DNA from: Octopus sinensis
Taxonomy: Eukaryota
DNA: 11,862 bases
NCBI RefSeq assembly: GCF_006345805.1
Contig: NW_021826905.1
Coordinates: 1 to 11,862 of the forward strand
Reading direction: 5' to 3'
Within the stretch, counting starts at the first letter, position 1, and each line of letters begins with the position of its first letter. Below are positions 60-11,546 of this stretch, piece by piece. Below the pieces are notes generated by a model. That model was given only the letters and a program-made list of their open reading frames with translations, made no database searches and was not told where the DNA came from. The translations under genes and the position numbers were made by a program.

Positions 60-125
60 TTTCGCTACGCATGCAGGACCCCAGGAGCTCCAGAAAAACC
101 TGTGATACAAAGAAATAATAATAAC

Positions 126-673
126 AAACTATGCCAACACTATAGAATGATTACAGAAAAATGGTGGTATAGGATCACCACAGAAAAGGTCTCAGAAAAA
201 GGGGAAAGCAACCCTAACCCTGGGTTATGCCAATATACACAGATAGAGAAATCAAGGCTTATAGACCGGATATTGTTGTCAGGGATCACCCTCCCCGCCA
301 AAAAATGCCTTGGTATTTGATATATCAATACCAACAGATGACAATGTACCTCTAAACGAAACAGAATACAAAGATCTGGAAATAAAGGTGACCCGAATGT
401 GGGGCTTAAAAAGAGAAGCAATTCCTATAATAAATAGTAGGTGCATTAGGTATGATGAAACAAAAACTCAGACAAATATATAACCAAAACACCAGGACTT
501 ACAAATGTATATAACACAGAAAATAGCACTACTAGGCCCCGCGTACATCCTGCGTAAAACACTTTCAATACAATGAAAGCAAGAGCACAAAAACAAACTC
601 CAACACATACCCAATGCACACAGAGCTGCGCCCGGGAGTGCAGTGACAGCATGTGATCAAAATAAGACTACTG
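126..673 (+). mobile_element. Degenerate 5'-truncated R4/Dong-like RLE non-LTR retrotransposon 3' end (lineage A, older copy)
   Basis: Aligns by eye along its length with 3497-4045 (KLCQHY..TEK.WYR; aaatacaaagatctggaaata; gtaggtgcattagg; accaggacttacaaa; 3' end actactg+AAT). Many frameshifts and stops; AAT repeats on both sides. Confidence 0.88.
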
Positions 674-678
674 AATAA

Positions 679-734
<56 letters not shown>

Positions 735-749
735 GTAATAATAATAAGA

Positions 750-845
<96 letters not shown>

Positions 846-858
846 TAATAATAATAAT
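674..858. repeat. (AAT)n microsatellite
   Basis: Directly visible, few interruptions; source of the poly-Ile ORFs. Confidence 0.97.
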
Positions 859-1296
859 ATCTGTCAAGACCTACCAAAAACTGAGCAAATATAAGATCTT
901 GAAATAGAAATCACAAAATGTGGAAGCTGAAGACTAAACAATACCTGTTGTCATAGGTGCCCTGGGAATGATAGCAAAAGGGACTGATTGCTACCTAACT
1001 CAATACCAGGAAACCCCAAAATGGCAGAAATTCAAAAGATAGTGATCATGGGAACTGCTCATATCCTACGCAAAATACTCTCTATGTAATCCCAAGGTTT
1101 AAAACAAACATTTTTCTTTCTTTTTTTTCTTTATTTTTTTTTTTATTTTATTTTTATGTATTAGACATTCACTAGTACAACACCAAAAAAAAAACCCCAA
1201 ATATATGACACAGAACTTCCAACCTGTTGTCTCTTGAGGTCTCTGGGTGAGACTTGGAGCCAACTTGTACAAATATAAAGCAAAAGTCAAACATAG
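859..1296 (+). mobile_element. 5'-truncated R4/Dong-like RLE retrotransposon 3' end (lineage B)
   Basis: Frameshift-corrected translation SVKTYQKLSKYKDLEIEI..MWKLKT..IPVVIGALGMIAKG...IPGNPKMAEIQKIVIMGTAHILRKILSM*, stop 1087-1089, then ~205 nt 3' UTR ending in (AAT)n. Confidence 0.88.
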
Positions 1297-1320
1297 AATA
1301 ATAATAATAATAATAATAAT

Positions 1321-1950
1321 TTACATTGGACAATATGTCGGTATTATAAAATCAAAACTGCTGACAACTGGTATAAACACCAATCTGAAGCTGTGACTGA
1401 GGGAGAAAATGTGTCGATTCTATGGGACTTCTCCGTACAGACCGACAAGACTATAAAAGCTAATAAACCGTATATTATTATAAAAGATCAGACAAAAAAA
1501 GATGTGTTTATTAAATGACATGAGTATCCCTTGCGATCACAATATAGCGGCAAAAGAATTTGACAAGATTAGTAAATATAAAGACCTGCTAATAGAAATT
1601 GAAAAAAATGTGGCATCTCAAGGCGACTACAGTACCAGTGATTGTAGGATCTCTAGGAATGATAAAAAAGGTACTGAAACCTATTTGAAAATGATTCCAG
1701 GCTTACCATCCCTACAGGAAATGCAAAAAATCAAATCAACTAGAACGGCTCATGTACTGAGAAGAGTATTATCGCTGTGAAAACAACATCCATCCATGAA
1801 TTTATTTATTTATTAATTTTTAAATACATATTTTATCTGTGAATTTGTGTGTGTAATCTGGGGGTGTATACAATGAGCTTCTCTGCCCCAGGTGTACGGA
1901 AAACACTCGGCGAGAAACGGAAGAAAATTTGAAGAAAGAAGGAAAAAAAC
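1321..1950 (+). mobile_element. 5'-truncated R4/Dong-like RLE retrotransposon 3' end (lineage C1)
   Basis: LHWTICRYYKIKTADNWYKHQSEAVTEGENVSILWDFSVQTDKTIKANKPYIIIKD.../MSIPCDHNIAAKEFDKISKYKDLLIEIEK/MWHLK...TAHVLRRVLSL*, stop 1778-1780. Frameshifts fall in A-runs; catalytic PD mutated to PY. Flanked by (AAT)n 1297-1320 and 1951-2073. Confidence 0.9.
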
Positions 1951-2073
<123 letters not shown>

Positions 2074-2074
2074 A

Positions 2075-2633
2075 ATGCCCTGATGCAGTACCAGGCAGTG
2101 GCTCTCATGGCTTCTGATCTTAACTGATTGGAAGTGTTATCATGTACATTGTTTTGTCTTGGTATAAAAGATGGGCTACAGCAAATATTCTGCTCAATAC
2201 CACAGATTTGCTTGTCAGTTGTTTGACCTTAACCAGTTGAGCATGTCCCTTAGTGGTTGACGATATGTGCATCTCTGATCACGAGCAGAAGTAGTGGGGG
2301 AGCATCATAGCCATGTGTTGAGAGGGATTCTTTGGGGTTTGAATAATTCACCTCTGGAAACATGGGTGGTTCTTTCAACATCCTTAAACAACCCTTATTC
2401 AGTCAGGGACCTTTGCGTGGAGTGGGCTACTCGACATGTAAAAAATTCTAACTGGGCCCCACCTACAAAGTCATGCACTGTTTACTTTGATGTGAGATCA
2501 CTATGTCGAGCACATGTGGTTGTGATGCACGTGTCTGGTGTACCCTTATGAGACGGGTAGTCATGATGGGTATATTGGGCTTCGTATATTTTACCCCAGT
2601 GTCACTTTGATGGCATGCACTGCTCTCTCACTC
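2075..2633 (+). mobile_element. Non-coding ~560 bp insert within the AAT array (non-autonomous element or long 3' UTR of another AAT-targeting retroelement)
   Basis: Complex sequence sharply bounded by (AAT)n on both sides; no RLE/RT-like peptide found; possible 3' hairpin cagtg...cactg near 2597-2622. Strand is inferred from neighbours. Confidence 0.55.
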
Positions 2634-2687
2634 AATAATAATAATAATAATAATAATAATAAGAAGAAGAAGAAGAAGAAGAAGAAG
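2634..2687. repeat. (AAT)9 then (AAG)9 compound microsatellite
   Basis: Directly visible. Confidence 0.95.
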
Positions 2688-2688
2688 A

Positions 2689-3404
2689 ACCACCTAATCT
2701 CTGGATGTAAAGTCTTAGCACCAGTGGAGTATAAATTAAGACATGACAGAGTTGGCCAATATCTACACTGGCTAATAAGTCGGCATTACAATATCAAAAC
2801 TGCCGACAAGTGGTATAATCACCACCCTGAGGCTGTAACTGAAGGAGAAAATGTAACCATTCTGTGGGACTTTCCAGTACATACAGACCGAACCATTAAG
2901 GCCAATAAACCAGATATTGTTGTGAAAGACAAAACAATAAAGTTTGCTTATTGATCGACATGAGCATCCCCTGTGATCATAATATCTCAGCGAAAGAGTT
3001 TGACAAGCTCAGAAAATATAAAGACCTACTCATTGAAATTGAGAAAATGTGGCATCTCAAGGCGGTTACAATACCAGTGATCGTAGGAGCACTAGGAATG
3101 ATCAAGAAGGGAACCGAAAATTATATGAGAATGATCCCTGGCTTACCATCCCTGCAAGAAGTGCAAAAGATTGTCTTAACTGGTACATCACACGTATTGA
3201 GAAGAGCATTGTCGATGTGAGAACCGTTACTGCTCATGTATTTTAATTTAACTTAAAAAATAAAAAATAATTTTTTTTTTTTAAATGAACGAACTATTGA
3301 GTTTGGTTTAATGGCCTACTAATGTATACTATGAGTTTCCTTGGCCTAGGAGTCGGGAAGACAGTCGGCAAGAAATGGAAGCAAATTTGAAAGAAGAAAA
3401 AAAA

Positions 3405-3405
<1 letters not shown>
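2689..3405 (+). mobile_element. 5'-truncated R4/Dong-like RLE retrotransposon 3' end (lineage C2), longest fragment
   Basis: HLISGC (H-x4-C end of the CCHC knuckle), RHD motif, ILWDFPVHTDRTIKANKPDIVV, IDMSIP, KLRKYKDL, PVIVGALG, LQEVQKIVLTGTSHVLRRALSM*, stop 3218-3220. One frameshift near 2935-2950. This is the C-terminal RLE domain of R2/R4-group elements. Confidence 0.93.

Positions 3406-3465
<60 letters not shown>
3406..3465. repeat. (AAT)n microsatellite
   Basis: Directly visible, pure. Confidence 0.97.
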
Positions 3466-3467
<2 letters not shown>

Positions 3468-4042
3468 TGACAGAGTTGGAACCTACATACATTGGAAGCT
3501 ATGCCAACATTATGGAATAACAACAGAAAAAAGATGGTATAGGCACACACCAGAAAAGGTCACAGAAAACGAGAAAGCAACCATACTCTGGGATATGCCG
3601 ATACACACAGATAGAGAAATTAAGGCCAACAGACCAGATATAGTTGTCAGAGATCATGAAGAAAAAAAATGCTTTCTAATTGATGTATCAATACCGGCAG
3701 ATGACAACGTGTCTCTAAAAGAAATGGAGAAACTCTCAAAATACAAAGACCTGGAAATAGAGGTAACCAGAATGTGGGACCTAAAAACAGAAACAATTCC
3801 TATCATAGTAGGTGCATTAGGCATGATAAAAAAATATTCAGACAAATACATAACAAAAACACCAGGACTTACAAACACATATAACATACAGAAAATTGCA
3901 CTACTAGGCACTGCACCATCCTACGCAGAACACTTTCCATACAATAACCATCAGAGCATCACAACAAATCACAGCACATACCCAAGGCACACAGAGCTGC
4001 GCTCGGTAGTGAAATGAAAGCACGCTATAAAAAATAAAACTA

Positions 4043-5112: not shown

Positions 5113-5790
5113 GAGGGAAAAACTCGGATTTTGTGAATTTTCCCAAGTCCTTTCCCCATCCCCTTGGAAAAGATTTTCCTCACAAATTTCTTTATAATCC
5201 GAAACTATGCCGCTTGAAAGGTATTTCTATAAAATTTCATTCAAAAAACCCATTTTCCTAAAACTTGTGAGGAAAAAACTCGGATTTTGTGAATTTTCCG
5301 AAGTTCTCTCCCCACCGAGTTGGAAAAGATTTTCCACACAAATTTCTTTATAATCCGAAAGCATACCGTTTGAAAGGTATTTCTATAAAATTTCATTGAA
5401 AAAAACCCATTTTCCTAAAACTTGTGAGGGAAAAACTTGGATTTTGTGAATTTTCCGAAGTTCTCTCCCCACCGAGTTGGAAAAGATTTTCCTCACAAAT
5501 TTCTTTATAATCCGAAAGTATGCCGTTTGAAAGGTATTTCTATAAAATTTCATTGAAAAAAACCCATTTTCCTAAAACTTGTGAGGGAAAAACTTGGATT
5601 TTGTGAATTTTCCGAAGTTCTCTCCCCACCGAGTTGGAAAAGATTTTCCTCACAAATTTCTTTATAATCCGAAAGTATGCCGTTTGAAAGGTATTTCTAT
5701 AAAATTTCATTGAAGAAACCCCATTTTCCTAAAAGTTACGAGGGAAAAACTCGGATCTTATAAATTTTCCAAAGTCCTCTCCCCACCCTC
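5113..5790. repeat. 157-bp tandem repeat, ~4.3 copies
   Basis: Unit marker gag(g/a)gaaaaact(c/t)ggat starts at 5113, 5269, 5426, 5583, 5740; inner copies nearly identical, outer copies more diverged. Confidence 0.93.
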
Positions 5791-5987: not shown

Positions 5988-6538
5988 CCGTATTTTCAGG
6001 TATATAAGCCGCTATTTTTCTTTTACCGTCATGTTTTAATAATGCTATTTTTAATCTAATAAAGACTTTTATATTGACGAAATATGTTTGTTGTTGATTA
6101 TCTCTCTCTATATAAACGGCAGTTTGTCCGTGCGTTTTCTGTGTGTCTGTTTTCTCGTACCCTCACCCTGACCACATCTTTCAACCGATTCTAATGAAAC
6201 TTGACACACGCATAGCCCAATGTCATAATTCAAAACTAACGCAGCGAAAATTTTGAAAAGTTCCCCCAGTTCTGAAAAAAATCGATAAATTCGACATGGG
6301 GTCGAGAATCAGAAACACGAACCACAAACTGTCTAGGGGGCGCAACTCCACCTTTTTTAAATCTCAAAAAAAAATTTACCATCATTTTTTTTCCATTTTT
6401 TTGCTATTTTTTGGCTATAACTCTCTAAAAATGCTTTATAGTTATTTCCCTTACAAACCCGAGCAACGCCGGGCGATACTGCTAGTAGTAAGATAAAATC
6501 ATGACAATGACAATACATCTCATAGTTAGAAAATAAGG
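5988..6538. mobile_element. Possible degenerate Tc2/pogo-like MITE interrupted by the Helitron
   Basis: TA + CCGTATTTTCAGGTATATAAGCCGC (5986-6012) resembles CCGTA-type TIRs; weak inverted partner acatctcatagttagaaaataagg (6515-6538) followed by CA. Confidence 0.3.
6101..6485 (+). mobile_element. Non-autonomous Helitron (385 bp)
   Basis: 5' TC (tctctctctatataaa), 3' CTAG (6482-6485), GC-rich hairpin cccgagcaacgccggg (6458-6473) 8 nt upstream of CTAG, inserted between A6100 and T6486 without TSD. The second copy at 11160-11546 has the same boundaries. Confidence 0.88.
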
Positions 6539-6600
6539 CATTTTGAAACTACATACACGTCAAGGACCTGTTCAGTTTGGCCCAAACACTGAATAGATCC

Positions 6601-6690
6601 AATTTCATTGCAAGATATCCATTTTCCTAAAGGTCATGAGGGGAAAAATTCGGATCGTGTGAATTTTCCGAAAGTCCTATTCCCTCCCCC
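6601..6690. repeat. Diverged partial copy of the 157-bp unit
   Basis: aatttcattg..ccattttcctaaaggtcatgaggggaaaaattcggatcgtgtgaattttccgaaagtcct matches 5703-5780. Confidence 0.75.
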
Positions 6691-6730
6691 GATTCGTTAC
6701 TGCATATATTTTTATTTTCATATTTCATTA

Positions 6731-7153
6731 CTCTTTTACTCTTTTACTTGTTTCAGTCATTTGACTGCGGCCATGCTGGAGCACCGCCTTTTAGTCGAGC
6801 AAATCGACCCCCGGGGACTTATTCTTTTTTGTAAGACCAGTACTTATTCTATCGGTCTCTTTTTGCCGAACCGCTAGGTGACGGGGACGCAAACACACCA
6901 GCATCGGTTGTCAAGCAATGCTAGAGGGACAAACACAGACACACAAACATATACACACACATACACATATATATATATATACATATATACGACAGGCTTC
7001 TTTCAGTTTCCGTCTACCAAATCCAGTCACAAGGCATTGGTCGGCCCGAGGCTATGGCAGAAGACACTTGCCCAAGATACCACGCAGTGGGACTGAACCC
7101 GGAACCATGTGGTTGGTAAACAAGCTACTTACCACACAGCCACTCCTATGCCT
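6731..7153 (-). mobile_element. Full-length tRNA-derived SINE (octopus-type, CORE-like motif); anchor of the array
   Basis: Minus strand: aggcataggag, A box TGGCTGTGTGG, B-box-like GGTTCAGTCCC, CORE-like cttgggcaagtgtctt, internal (TA)/(TG) tract, 3' domain ending in short repeats aagtaaaagagtaaaagag. Confidence 0.85.
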
Positions 7154-10100
7154 ATTTATATACATATATACGACAGGCTTCTTTCAGTTTCCGTCTACCA
7201 AATCCACTCACAAGGCATTGGTCGGCCCGGGGCTATAGCAGAAGACACTTGCCCAAGATGCCACGCAGTGGGACTGAACCCAGAACCATGTGGTTGGTAA
7301 ACAAGCTACTTACCACACAGCCACTCCTATGCCTATTTATATACATATATACGACAGGCTTCTTTTCAGTTTCCGTCTACCAAATCCACTCACAAGGCAT
7401 TGGTCGGCCCGAGGCTATAGCAGAAGACACTTGCCCAAGATGCCACGCAGTGGGACTGAACCCGGAACCATGTGGTTGGTTAGCAAGCTACTTACCACAC
7501 AGCCACTCCTATGCCTATTTATATACATATATACGACAGGCTTCTTTCAGTTTCCGTCTACCAAATCCACTCACAAGGCATTGGTCGGCCCGAGGCTATA
7601 GCAGAAGACACTTGCCCAAGATGCCACGCAGTGGGACTGAACCCAGAACCATGTGGTTGGTTAGCAAGCTACTTACCACACAGCCACTCCTATGCCTATT
7701 TATATACATATATACGACAGGCTTCTTTCAGTTTCCGTCTACCAAATCCACTCACAAGGCATTGGTCGGCCCGGGGCTATAGCAGAAGACACTTGCCCAA
7801 GATGCCACGCAGTGGGACTGAACCCAGAACCATGTGGTTGGTTAGCAAGCTACTTACCACACAGCCACTCCTATGCCTATTTATATACATATATACGACA
7901 GGCTTCTTTTCAGTTTCCGTCTACCAAATCCACTCACAAGGCATTGGTCGGCCCGAGGCTATAGCAGAAGACACTTGCCCAAGATGCCACGCAGTGGGAC
8001 TGAACCCGGAACCATGTGGTTGGTTAGCAAGCTACTTACCACACAGCCACTCCTATGCCTATTTATATACATATATACGACAGGCTTCTTTTCAGTTTCC
8101 GTCTACCAAATCCACTCACAAGGCTTTGGTCGGCCCGAGGCTATAGCAGAAACACTTGCCCAGATGCCACGCAGTGGGACTGAACCCGGAACCATGTGGT
8201 TGGTTAGCAAGCTACTTACCACACAGCCACTCCTATGCCTATTTATATACATATATACGACAGGCTTCTTTCAGTTTCCGTCTACCAAATCCACTCACAA
8301 GGCATTGGTCGGCCCGGGGCTATAGCAGAAGACACTTGCCCAAGATGCCACGCAGTGGGACTGAACCCAGAACCATGTGGTTGGTTAGCAAGCTACTTAC
8401 CACACAGCCACTCCTATGCCTATTTATATACATATATACGACAGGCTTCTTTTCAGTTTCCGTCTACCAAATCCACTCACAAGGCATTGGTCGTGCCCCG
8501 AGGCTATAGCAGAAGACACTTGCCCAAGATGCCACGCAGTGGGACTGAACCCAGAACCATGTGGTTGGTTAGCAAGCTACTTACCACACAGCCACTCCTA
8601 TGCCTATTTATATACATATATACGACAGGCTTCTTTTCAGTTTCCGTCTACCAAATCCACTCACAAGGCATTGGTCGGCCCGGGGCTATAGCAGAAGACA
8701 CTTGCCCAAGATGCCACGCAGTGGGACTGAACCCGGAACCATGTGGTTGGTAAACAAGCTACTTACCACACAGCCACTCCTATGCCTATTTATATACATA
8801 TATACGACAGGCTTCTTTCAGTTTCCGTCTACCAAATCCACTCACAAGGCATTGGTCGGCCCGGGGCTATAGCAGAAGACACTTGCCCAAGATGCCACGC
8901 AGTGGGACTGAACCCGGAACCATGTGGTTGGTTAGCAAGCTACTTACCACCACACAGCCACTCCTATGCCTATTTATATACATATATACGACAGGCTTCT
9001 TCTTCAGTTTCCGTCTACCAAATCCACTCCACAAGGCATTGGTCGGCCCGGGGCTATAGCAGAAGACACTTGCCCAAGATGCCACGCAGTGGGACTGAAC
9101 CCGGAACCATGTGGTTGGTAAACAAGCTACTTACCACACAGCCACTCCTATGCCTATTTATATACATATATACGACAGGCTTCTTTTCAGTTCCGTCTAC
9201 CAAATCCACTCACAAGGCATTGGTCGGCCGGGGCTATAGCAGAAGACACTTGCCCAAGATGCCACGCAGTGGGACTGAACCCGGAACCATGTGGTTGGTT
9301 AGCAAGCTACTTACCACACAGCCACTCCTATGCCTATTTATATACATATATACGACAGGCTTCTTTCAGTTTCCGTCTACCAAATCCACTCACAAGGCAT
9401 TGGTCGGCCCGGGGCTATAGCAGAAGACACTTGCCCAAGATGCCACGCAGTGGGACTGAACCCGGAACCATGTGGTTGGTAAACAAGCTACTTACCACAC
9501 AGCCACTCCTATGCCTATTTATATACATATATACGACAGGCTTCTTTCAGTTTCCGTCTACCAAATCCACTCACAAGGCATTGGTCGGCCCGTGGCTATA
9601 GCAGAAGACACTTGCCCAGATGCACGCAGTGGGACTGAACCCGGAACCATGTGGTTGGTAAACAAGCTACTTACCACACAGCCACTCCTATGCCTATTTA
9701 TATACATATATACGACAGGCTTCTTTCAGTTTCCGTCTACCAAATCCACTCACAAGGCATTGGTCGGCCCGTGGCTATAGCAGAAGACACTTGCCCAAGA
9801 TGCCACGCAGTGGGACTGAACCCGGAACCATGTGGTTGGTAAACAAGCTACTTACCACACAGCCACTCCTATGCCTATTTATATACATATATACGACAGG
9901 CTTCTTTCAGTTTCCGTCTACCAAATCCACTCACAAGGCATTGGTCGGCCCGTGGCTATAGCAGAAGACACTTGCCCAAGATGCCACGCAGTGGACTGAA
10001 CCCGGAACCATGTGGTTGGTAAACAAGCTACTTACCACACAGCCACTCCTATGCCTATTTATATACATATATACGACAGGCTTCTTTCAGTTTCCGTCTA

Positions 10101-10960
10101 CCAAATCCACTCACAAGGCATTGGTCGGCCCGTGGCTATAGCAGAAGACACTTGCCCAAGATGCCACGCAGTGGGACTGAACCCGGAACCATGTGGTTGG
10201 TAAACAAGCTACTTACCACACAGCCACTCCTATGCCTATTTATATAATATATACGACAGGCTCTTTAGTTCCGTTCCGTCTACCAAATCCACTCACAAGG
10301 CATTGGTCGGCCCGTGGCTATAGCAGAAGACACTTGCCCAAGATGCCACGCAGTGGGACTGAACCCGGAACCATGTGGTTGGTAAACAAGCTACTTACCA
10401 CACAGCCACTCCTATGCCTATTTATATACATATATACGACAGGCTTCTTTCAGTTTCCGTCTACCAAATCCACTCACAAGGCATTGGTCGGCCCGTGGCT
10501 ATAGCAGAAGACACTTGCCCAAGATGCCACGCAGTGGGACTGAACCCGGAACCATGTGGTTGGTAAACAAGCTACTTACACACAGCCACTCCTATGCCTA
10601 TTTATATACATATATACGACAGGCTTCTTTCAGTTTCCGTCTACCAAATCCACTCACAAGGCATTGGTCGGCCCGAGGTATAGCAGAAGACACTTGCCCA
10701 AGATGCTACGCAGTGGGACTGAACCCGGAACCATGTGGTTGGTTAGCAAGCTACTTACCACACAGCCACTCCTATGCCTATTTATATACATATATACGAC
10801 AGGCTTCTTTCAGTTTCCGTCTACCAAATCCACTCACAAGGCATTGGTCGGCCCGGGGCTATAGCAGAAGACACTTGCCCAAGATGCCACGCAGTGGGAC
10901 TGAACCCGGAACCATGTGGTTGGTTAGCAAGCTACTTACCACACAGCCACTCCTGCACCT
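6975..10960 (-). repeat. Tandem array of 22 x ~181-bp units, each the 5' head (tRNA-like promoter + core) of the SINE
   Basis: Marker gacaggc at 6991, 7172, 7353, 7535, 7716, 7897, 8079, 8259, 8440, 8624, 8806, 8990, 9174, 9354, 9535, 9714, 9895, 10075, 10255, 10438, 10618, 10798; array ends at tcctgcacct (10960). Confidence 0.97.
10896..10949 (-). promoter_or_regulatory. Pol III type-2 internal promoter (A box 10939-10949, B-box-like 10896-10906); repeated in each array unit
   Basis: Minus strand TGGCTGTGTGG, 32-nt spacer, GGTTCAGTCCC; tRNA-like spacing, but both boxes deviate from consensus. Confidence 0.6.
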
Positions 10961-11028
10961 TTTTTTTTTTACACCTATTACACTCGTTTTGATTTCTGTT
11001 TTGGTAACCAGTAGTAAAAGTAACATTA

Positions 11029-11144
11029 ACCGATAGAATACCAGGTTTCAAAAAATGAGCCCTGGGATCGATTCATTCGACTAAAAATTCTCCAAGGCGG
11101 TGCCCCAGCATAGCCACAGGCTAATGACTCAAACAAGATACAAG
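11029..11144 (+). mobile_element. Diverged 3' fragment of a related SINE, opposite orientation to 6731-6856
   Basis: accgatagaata..ccagg..gggatcgattcattcgactaaaa..aaggcggtgccccagcatagccacagg..aatgactcaaacaag matches the reverse complement of 6740-6856. Confidence 0.8.
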
Positions 11145-11159
11145 CAAAATATACTGAAA

Positions 11160-11546
11160 CTAGCAGTACCGCCCGGCGTTGCTCGGGTTTGTAAGGGAAA
11201 TAACTATAAAGCATTTTTAGAGAGTTATAGCCAAAAGATAGCAAAAAAATGGAAAAAAAATTATGGTAAATTTTTTTTTTGAGAGTTAAAAAGGTCGAGT
11301 TGCGTCCCCTAGAAAGTCTGTGGTTTGTGTTTCTGATTCTCGACCCCATTTCGAATTTATCAATTTGTTTTCAGAACTGGGGGAACTTTTCAAAATTTTC
11401 GCTGCGTTAGTTTTGAATTATGACATTGGGCTATATGTGTGTCAAGTTTCATCAGAATCGGTTGAAAGCCGCGGTCAGGGTGAGGGTACAACCTGACAGA
11501 CACACAGACACGCACAGAGACAAACTGCCGTTTATATAGAGAGAGA
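11160..11546 (-). mobile_element. Non-autonomous Helitron, second copy (387 bp)
   Basis: Reverse complement of 6101-6485 with scattered differences; minus strand reads A|TCTCTCTCTATATAAA...cccgagcaacgccgggcggtactgCTAG|T. Confidence 0.88.

What the first reader, a model, noticed from the sequence alone, without database searches (positions are those of the whole stretch)
6731..10960. SINE with a 22-fold tandem amplified Pol III head: young satellite born from a SINE
Seen: on the minus strand, 22 heads (A box, B-box-like motif, core, up to the internal TA tract) precede one 3' tail. The unit junction is always TA tract to SINE 5' end. The outermost head starts aggtgcagg, while all 21 others start aggcatagg. 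Inference: a truncated head next to a full SINE formed a dimer, which then expanded by unequal exchange or rolling circle. The result is a regular cluster of potential TFIIIC sites at roughly nucleosome-repeat spacing (~181 bp), a candidate insulator or ncRNA source.
Basis: partly seen in the sequence, partly recalled or inferred. Interest (0 to 1): 0.7.

Follow-up and report, generated by a model that had tools for sequence, protein, structure and literature searches.

The report
SINE-head satellite with a borrowed joint
The front end of one short jumping-gene (SINE) copy stands 22 times in a row, joined by a joint found letter for letter at nine unrelated places in the genome; the joint was likely copied in from another SINE copy by DNA exchange and then likely multiplied on the spot, so this is a small satellite of a kind already described in reptiles and likely not a regulatory device.

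Summary
Observation confirmed: 22 SINE heads (181-bp unit, minus strand) precede one tail. It is a SINE-derived satellite (sSat), a kind described in reptiles; this scan noted one before in this genome (112 heads), and I found another 22-head array on C20. Such head-to-head joints number at least 620 among at least 91,183 heads. Three paralogues on C5 hold the empty site, and the odd first head overlaps target DNA. The same joint occurs at nine other loci with unrelated flanks, six on the 15-Mb C30, between heads of old and young subfamilies, so it was not made here. Best model (0.6): a joint born elsewhere, likely by a SINE inserting into another's TA tract, was copied into this copy by ectopic exchange and expanded by unequal exchange. 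Main rival (0.25): a multi-headed RNA was retrotransposed. The 181-bp period is not special (168-195 bp elsewhere), and the B box is degenerate. No evidence for insulator or ncRNA function; copy number is unverified by long reads.

The parts
6731..10960 (-). Whole multi-headed SINE: 22 heads, one internal TA/GT tract, one tail; absent from three paralogous sites on C5
10780..10960 (-). Outermost head (h1), young-subfamily type; its first bases (10954-10960) overlap the target sequence TGTGCA of the empty site
7154..10779 (-). 20 middle units of 179-184 bp: 165-bp head (A box, degenerate B box, central domain) plus 16-bp TA spacer ending AAAT, joined to AGGCATAGG
6989..7153 (-). Last head (h22), the most diverged: three private changes, 5.75 differences to the middle units against 3.8 among them
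6946..6988 (-). Full-length internal TA/GT microsatellite of the SINE
6731..6945 (-). Single SINE tail ending in GAGTAAAA-type repeats; 3-base overlap (TAA) with the target; no target-site duplication
6486..6730 (.). Left flank, 95-96% identical to three C5 paralogues that lack the SINE
10961..11159 (.). Right flank, 98-99% identical to the same C5 paralogues; holds an old SINE tail remnant on the + strand

Best explanation
This is a SINE-derived satellite: one copy of a very abundant SINE carries its head 22 times, joined by a joint shared with nine unrelated loci, and the joint was likely copied in from another multi-headed copy by ectopic DNA exchange and then likely multiplied in place by unequal exchange. 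Steps: (1) shown: a SINE sits in a site that is empty in three paralogues, without target duplication and with short overlaps at both ends; retrotransposition is inferred. (2) Inferred: head-to-head joints arise when a SINE inserts into the TA tract inside another copy; such nested two-tail structures are seen at 5 of 27 joint loci. (3) Inferred: because every SINE head is homologous to both sides of a joint, gene conversion or re-entry of an excised circle can add a head plus the donor's joint to any copy, mostly to neighbours on the same chromosome. (4) Shown as a pattern, inferred as a process: two or more heads are then expanded and shuffled locally. No function is needed.
For: Empty sites on C5 and end overlaps. 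Exact joint: 33 matches, 20 in the window and 13 at 9 other loci (C30 x6, C29 x1, two unplaced contigs), with unrelated flanks and 2-8 heads. C30 should hold about 1.5% of heads (18 in 199.9 kb sampled); 6 of 9 there has binomial p about 9e-10 if loci were independent insertions. The same joint lies between all-old heads (L092), old heads with one young site (L099), and all-young heads (L093, L095 mostly, L098 mostly); outer starts and tails differ by locus. The ten tails are no closer to each other (6.2%) than 18 random young tails (6.3%), and one clade is rejected (p-AU 0.003). Two arrays (L095, L096) mix joint spellings. For another joint type, two loci 47 kb apart with unrelated flanks share the joint plus private changes in the next ~70 bases of head, then revert to locus-own variants (L159/L160). 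Local turnover in the window. Analogue: shared junction types seeded into existing repeats along one chromosome in Drosophila (PMC7403614, passages).
Against: The window's flanks match a SINE-poor stretch of the large C5 (0 exact head ends in 70 kb), not C30, so here the joint must have come in trans or the contig lies elsewhere; its place is unknown. The insertion ends fit a multi-headed RNA equally well, and the 4.2-kb sense strand has no run of four T, so read-through is possible. The tail tree is star-like, which a master identical to the young consensus would also give; the AU result may rest on CpG homoplasy. A longer A-run occurs in 6 of 10 joint-bearing tails against 4 of 37 single copies, a weak hint of common descent. 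At several loci all heads share locus-private changes (L094, L095), which needs homogenisation or a very short donor tract. None of the ten loci shows the nested two-tail state in which this joint would have been born.
Confidence: 0.6

Rival explanations
1. A two- or multi-headed SINE RNA was transcribed through its heads and retrotransposed as a unit to this and the other nine loci, then expanded and homogenised locally.
For: Identical joint at ten loci with unrelated flanks and, at nine of them, a tail close behind the last head; insertion ends without duplication but with short overlaps; no T4 run in the array's sense strand; window flanks match C5, and a near-identical joint with two more TA letters lies on C3; longer A-run in 6 of 10 tails.
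Against: Six of nine other loci on one 15-Mb chromosome; heads around the joint belong to different subfamilies, outer starts differ, tails form no clade.
Confidence: 0.25
2. One reading: a truncated head inserted beside a full SINE at this locus (or the head duplicated by slippage between flank and internal TA tract), and the dimer expanded.
For: First and last head differ at subfamily sites and the middle units are recombinants of such types. Slippage between a TA flank and the internal tract fits some other loci (L164).
Against: The joint does not resemble this locus's flank (a poly-A run) and recurs exactly at nine loci, among many different spellings of 620 joints; the empty site shows a single insertion point.
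Confidence: 0.07
3. The array is kept as a TFIIIC/Pol III cluster acting as insulator or ncRNA source, phased on nucleosomes.
For: 22 A-box/B-box-like pairs at even spacing; no terminator inside.
Against: Absent from three ~98%-identical paralogues; period varies 168-195 bp among arrays and within one array; B box lacks the conserved A; head counts vary freely from 2 to 22.
Confidence: 0.04
4. The copy number is an assembly artefact of a small unplaced contig; the real locus has a few heads.
For: Window is the whole 11,862-base unplaced contig; 13 of 21 units have small indels.
Against: Substitutions are patterned along the array; 9- and 22-head arrays lie on chromosome C20; the tail/flank joint is in a short-read contig.
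Confidence: 0.04

Closest known systems
SINE-derived satellites (sSat1-3) of squamates, Vassetzky et al. 2023, PMC10702118 (parts 1-4 of 5 read)
   Same: Tandem unit is a part of a SINE, shorter than the SINE; a longer end unit runs on to the SINE terminus; a few to many units; many loci; head-plus-body units occur in geckos; locus-specific sub-variants.
   Different: Here the unit ends in the SINE's internal TA tract, joints come in many spellings that can be traced, an empty site is available, and one spelling is shared between subfamilies on one chromosome. The parts read propose unequal recombination and same-site insertion but do not trace joints between loci.
Rsp-like insertions into 1.688 clusters, Drosophila simulans clade, Sproul et al. 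2020, PMC7403614 (passages)
   Same: A rare junction, once made, is shared by clusters along one chromosome and is proposed to seed existing homologous repeats by interlocus gene conversion or circle re-entry.
   Different: There two unrelated satellites are joined; here donor and target are parts of one retroposon family and the targets are single dispersed copies.
Tandem SINE arrays of the blood clam S. broughtonii, PMC11481361 (section 15 and passages)
   Same: Mollusc SINE multimers of 4-15 units, some truncated at one position of the 3' part.
   Different: Those arrays carry target-site duplications, between units or around the array; here there is none and every unit has a complete head.
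Octopus tRNA-derived SINEs OR1/OR2 (name recalled; OR2 listed as a CORE SINE in PMC4758252 and PMC5804259, passages)
   Same: tRNA-like head, central domain, simple-repeat 3' end; the host is likely an octopus (recall and earlier notes of this scan).
   Different: No reference sequence was available, so family identity is untested.

Membership tests
SINE-derived satellite (sSat) | Tandem unit is a portion of a SINE, shorter than the element | tested here: met
   181-bp unit of a ~420-bp element
SINE-derived satellite (sSat) | At least four middle monomers | tested here: met
   20 middle units
SINE-derived satellite (sSat) | End unit runs on to the SINE terminus | tested here: met
   head 22 continues into the full tail, 6945-6731
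SINE-derived satellite (sSat) | Parent is an abundant dispersed SINE | tested here: met
   91,183 exact head-end matches; 17,193 for the young subfamily
SINE-derived satellite (sSat) | Units more alike than dispersed copies | tested here: met
   3.8 differences among heads 2-21 against 6.6 among 18 young single copies
SINE-derived satellite (sSat) | Subtelomeric or heterochromatic place | tested here: inconclusive
   contig unplaced; flanks match C5 at 118 of 136 Mb; only 36 of 620 joints lie on C1-C19
tRNA-derived SINE | A and B boxes | tested here: inconclusive
   A-box-like match; B box departs from GTTCRANNC (motifs recalled); ARAGORN 0
tRNA-derived SINE | Insertion with an empty site | tested here: met
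   three empty paralogues
tRNA-derived SINE | Pol III transcription | not testable with these tools
   only contigs were on offer; head words cannot be assigned to a locus
Octopus OR1/OR2 CORE-SINE | Sequence match to the published consensus and CORE domain | not tested
   no reference held; PMC15861 not available
Dimeric retroposing SINE subfamily | Clonal head-head-tail copies spread like other insertions | tested here: not met
   clustered on C30, mixed subfamilies, tails no clade; n is only 10
TSD-bounded SINE multimers (blood clam) | Target-site duplication | tested here: not met
   none; 1 or 7 target bases lost
Hammerhead retrozyme / newt Sat2-like satellite (recalled) | Hammerhead core in the unit | tested here: not met
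   no CTGANGA on either strand; no Rfam match in the array
TFIIIC-bound insulator | TFIIIC occupancy and barrier activity | not testable with these tools
   no chromatin data

The most novel reading that the evidence does not exclude
Head-to-head joints of this SINE are contagious: once one is made, it spreads by ectopic exchange to neighbouring single copies on the same chromosome and turns them into satellite seeds. Hundreds of loci, barcoded by joint spelling and concentrated on the small chromosomes, would record satellite birth and map ectopic recombination in this genome.
Probability: 0.5. Interest if true: 0.55.

Novelty: new member of a known kind. Interest (0 to 1): 0.33.

Why it matters
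The array itself is one of many and of a described kind. The useful part is the traceable joint: it lets one ask how SINE-derived satellites are seeded (ectopic exchange against retrotransposition of multimers), a point the reptile study, in the parts read, does not resolve. This locus has an empty site, so alleles in other individuals can order the events. Three paper searches listed no description of such arrays in octopus; subscription journals are mostly not covered, and supplements were not read.

Tried and rejected
Rfam and ARAGORN gave nothing in the array. Hammerhead core absent. Searches for alternative alleles of the two unplaced joint loci found only themselves. The window could not be placed: its left part and its end beyond 11705 are dispersed repeats, and its left half did not match the 70 kb around the C5 paralogues. 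Runs X2, X4 and X5 (other organisms) gave no cover of 6660-6691 at 97% likeness; this is no proof of absence. Contig depths are not copy numbers and were not used as such. A contig of run X14 (RNA by guess) matches only 10962-11159 and runs on at both ends, as the empty form would; it says nothing about the array. A genome-wide count of three-head arrays was not obtained; head counts come from fetched loci only: 27 distinct loci from the first 30 of 620 matches, ten loci of this joint and 20 stretches chosen by hand on C20, C24 and C27. The 620 is a lower bound: 3 of 20 evenly spaced C30 samples held multi-head copies that the pattern missed. The inverted pair around the array is two independent Helitron-like insertions, both absent from the C5 copies, not a composite element. 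The family name of the fragments in the left half was not confirmed by a profile search.

Full report
Observation. The window is a whole unplaced contig (C3376) of a 2.72-Gb assembly; the host is likely an octopus, from recall of the SINE and from earlier notes of this scan. TRF finds 22.0 copies of a 181-bp unit at 97%. On the minus strand there are 22 heads from 10960 to 6989, one TA/GT tract and one tail to 6731. The unit is a 165-bp head plus a 16-bp TA spacer. It has an A-box-like motif; the B-box-like motif lacks the conserved A. Small indels in 13 of 21 units look like consensus errors, but substitutions are patterned: heads 3-8 share a private allele, neighbours are more alike than shuffled order (42 against 55.1, p=0.018), and all four gametes occur between sites. 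A short-read contig crosses the tail/flank joint with 20 letters on the SINE side. The array is real; its exact length awaits long reads.

Parent element. The head end matches 91,183 places exactly, and the young subfamily to which the array mostly belongs 17,193. Single copies usually follow AT-rich DNA.

Empty site. Both flanks match three paralogues on C5 in which they are joined with no SINE; the window differs from two of them at 15-17 of 740 sites, while they differ from each other at 2 of 749. There is no target duplication. The SINE's terminal repeat overlaps the target by TAA, and the first head's AGGTGCAGG overlaps the target's TGTGCA, so 1 or 7 target bases were lost, depending on which side these letters came from. 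The odd first head is therefore most simply a 5' integration joint or a CpG change, not a sign of a second parent. Two Helitron-like elements and a further repeat are also private to the window.

The joint is not local. Head-TA-head joints match at least 620 places with many spellings; only 36 lie on C1-C19. Of 27 distinct loci examined from the start of that list, 22 have two heads and 5 have three to five; 5 have a second, mostly older tail right behind the first, as expected when a SINE inserts into another's TA tract. Stretches picked on C20 hold arrays of 9 and 22 heads, and periods range from 168 to 195 bp. The window's exact spelling occurs 13 times outside the window at nine loci: six on C30, one on C29, two on unplaced contigs. 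Their flanks share only common repeats and they have 2-8 heads. C30 is about 2.7-fold richer in this SINE than the average and should hold about 1.5% of copies, so six of nine is far beyond independent insertion. The joint lies between all-old heads at one locus and all-young heads at others; the ten tails are as far apart as random young tails and form no clade. Two arrays mix spellings. For another spelling, loci 47 kb apart with unrelated flanks share the joint and private changes in the next ~70 bases, then return to their own variants, which looks like a transferred tract.

Mechanism. Most likely (0.6) a joint made elsewhere was copied into this SINE by gene conversion or circle re-entry, and two or more heads then grew by unequal exchange. 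The diverged last head and tail would be the old resident, the middle a recently turned-over tract. Against this: the flanks point to C5, not C30; the sense strand has no T4 run, so a long Pol III read-through RNA is possible; the tail tree is star-like; and a longer A-run is shared by 6 of 10 tails against 4 of 37 single copies. Retrotransposition of a multi-headed RNA remains a real rival (0.25). An origin at this locus (0.07), a selected TFIIIC array (0.04) and an assembly artefact (0.04) are unlikely.

Comparison. The structure meets the tested features of SINE-derived satellites of squamates (PMC10702118, parts 1-4 read). The spread of a shared joint works like Rsp-like seeding into 1.688 clusters (PMC7403614, passages) but is not that system. 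Clam SINE multimers differ by their target duplications (PMC11481361, section 15). Family identity with OR1/OR2 is recalled and untested. This scan noted a 112-head array of a SINE head in the same genome (not checked by me).

Verdict. A real, new member of a known kind. The functional reading has no support. The traceable, chromosome-clustered joint is the one point that a repeat specialist could use. Interest 0.33.

Noticed in passing
window 120-3960: Five short fragments of a non-LTR retrotransposon 3' end with a restriction-like endonuclease motif, each between (TAA)n runs, all broken by stops or frameshifts; R4/Dong-like by recall.
   Followed up: partly
window 6101-6485 (+) and 11160-11546 (-): Two ~385-bp Helitron-like elements (TC...CTAG, 3' hairpin, A/T target) in inverted orientation around the array, both absent from the C5 paralogues.
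   Followed up: yes
window 5113-5787 and 6600-6700: 157-bp tandem repeat (4.3 copies) of a dispersed family, also in the C5 paralogues.
   Followed up: partly
L095, L097, L150, L170: The same SINE also forms tail arrays: the last ~130 bases repeated 2-7 more times with a fixed break near tail position 83, on C30 and C27.
   Followed up: no
L166 (C20:17,036,000-17,040,700): Independent, older 22-head array (5.4% mean divergence, periods 168-191 bp) with one tail.
   Followed up: partly
L168 (C20:17,077,700-17,083,700): Two multi-head tracts meet in inverted orientation, forming a long palindrome-like structure.
   Followed up: no
genome-wide: 584 of 620 head-to-head joints lie on C20-C30 or unplaced contigs, far more than SINE density seems to explain; part is segmental duplication (L151/152, L155/157, L156/158, L161-163).
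   Followed up: partly
C5:117,984,000-118,004,000 (L123-L125): The paralogous segment is itself duplicated three times at 97-99% identity, and a contig of a run guessed to be RNA matches its empty form.
   Followed up: no
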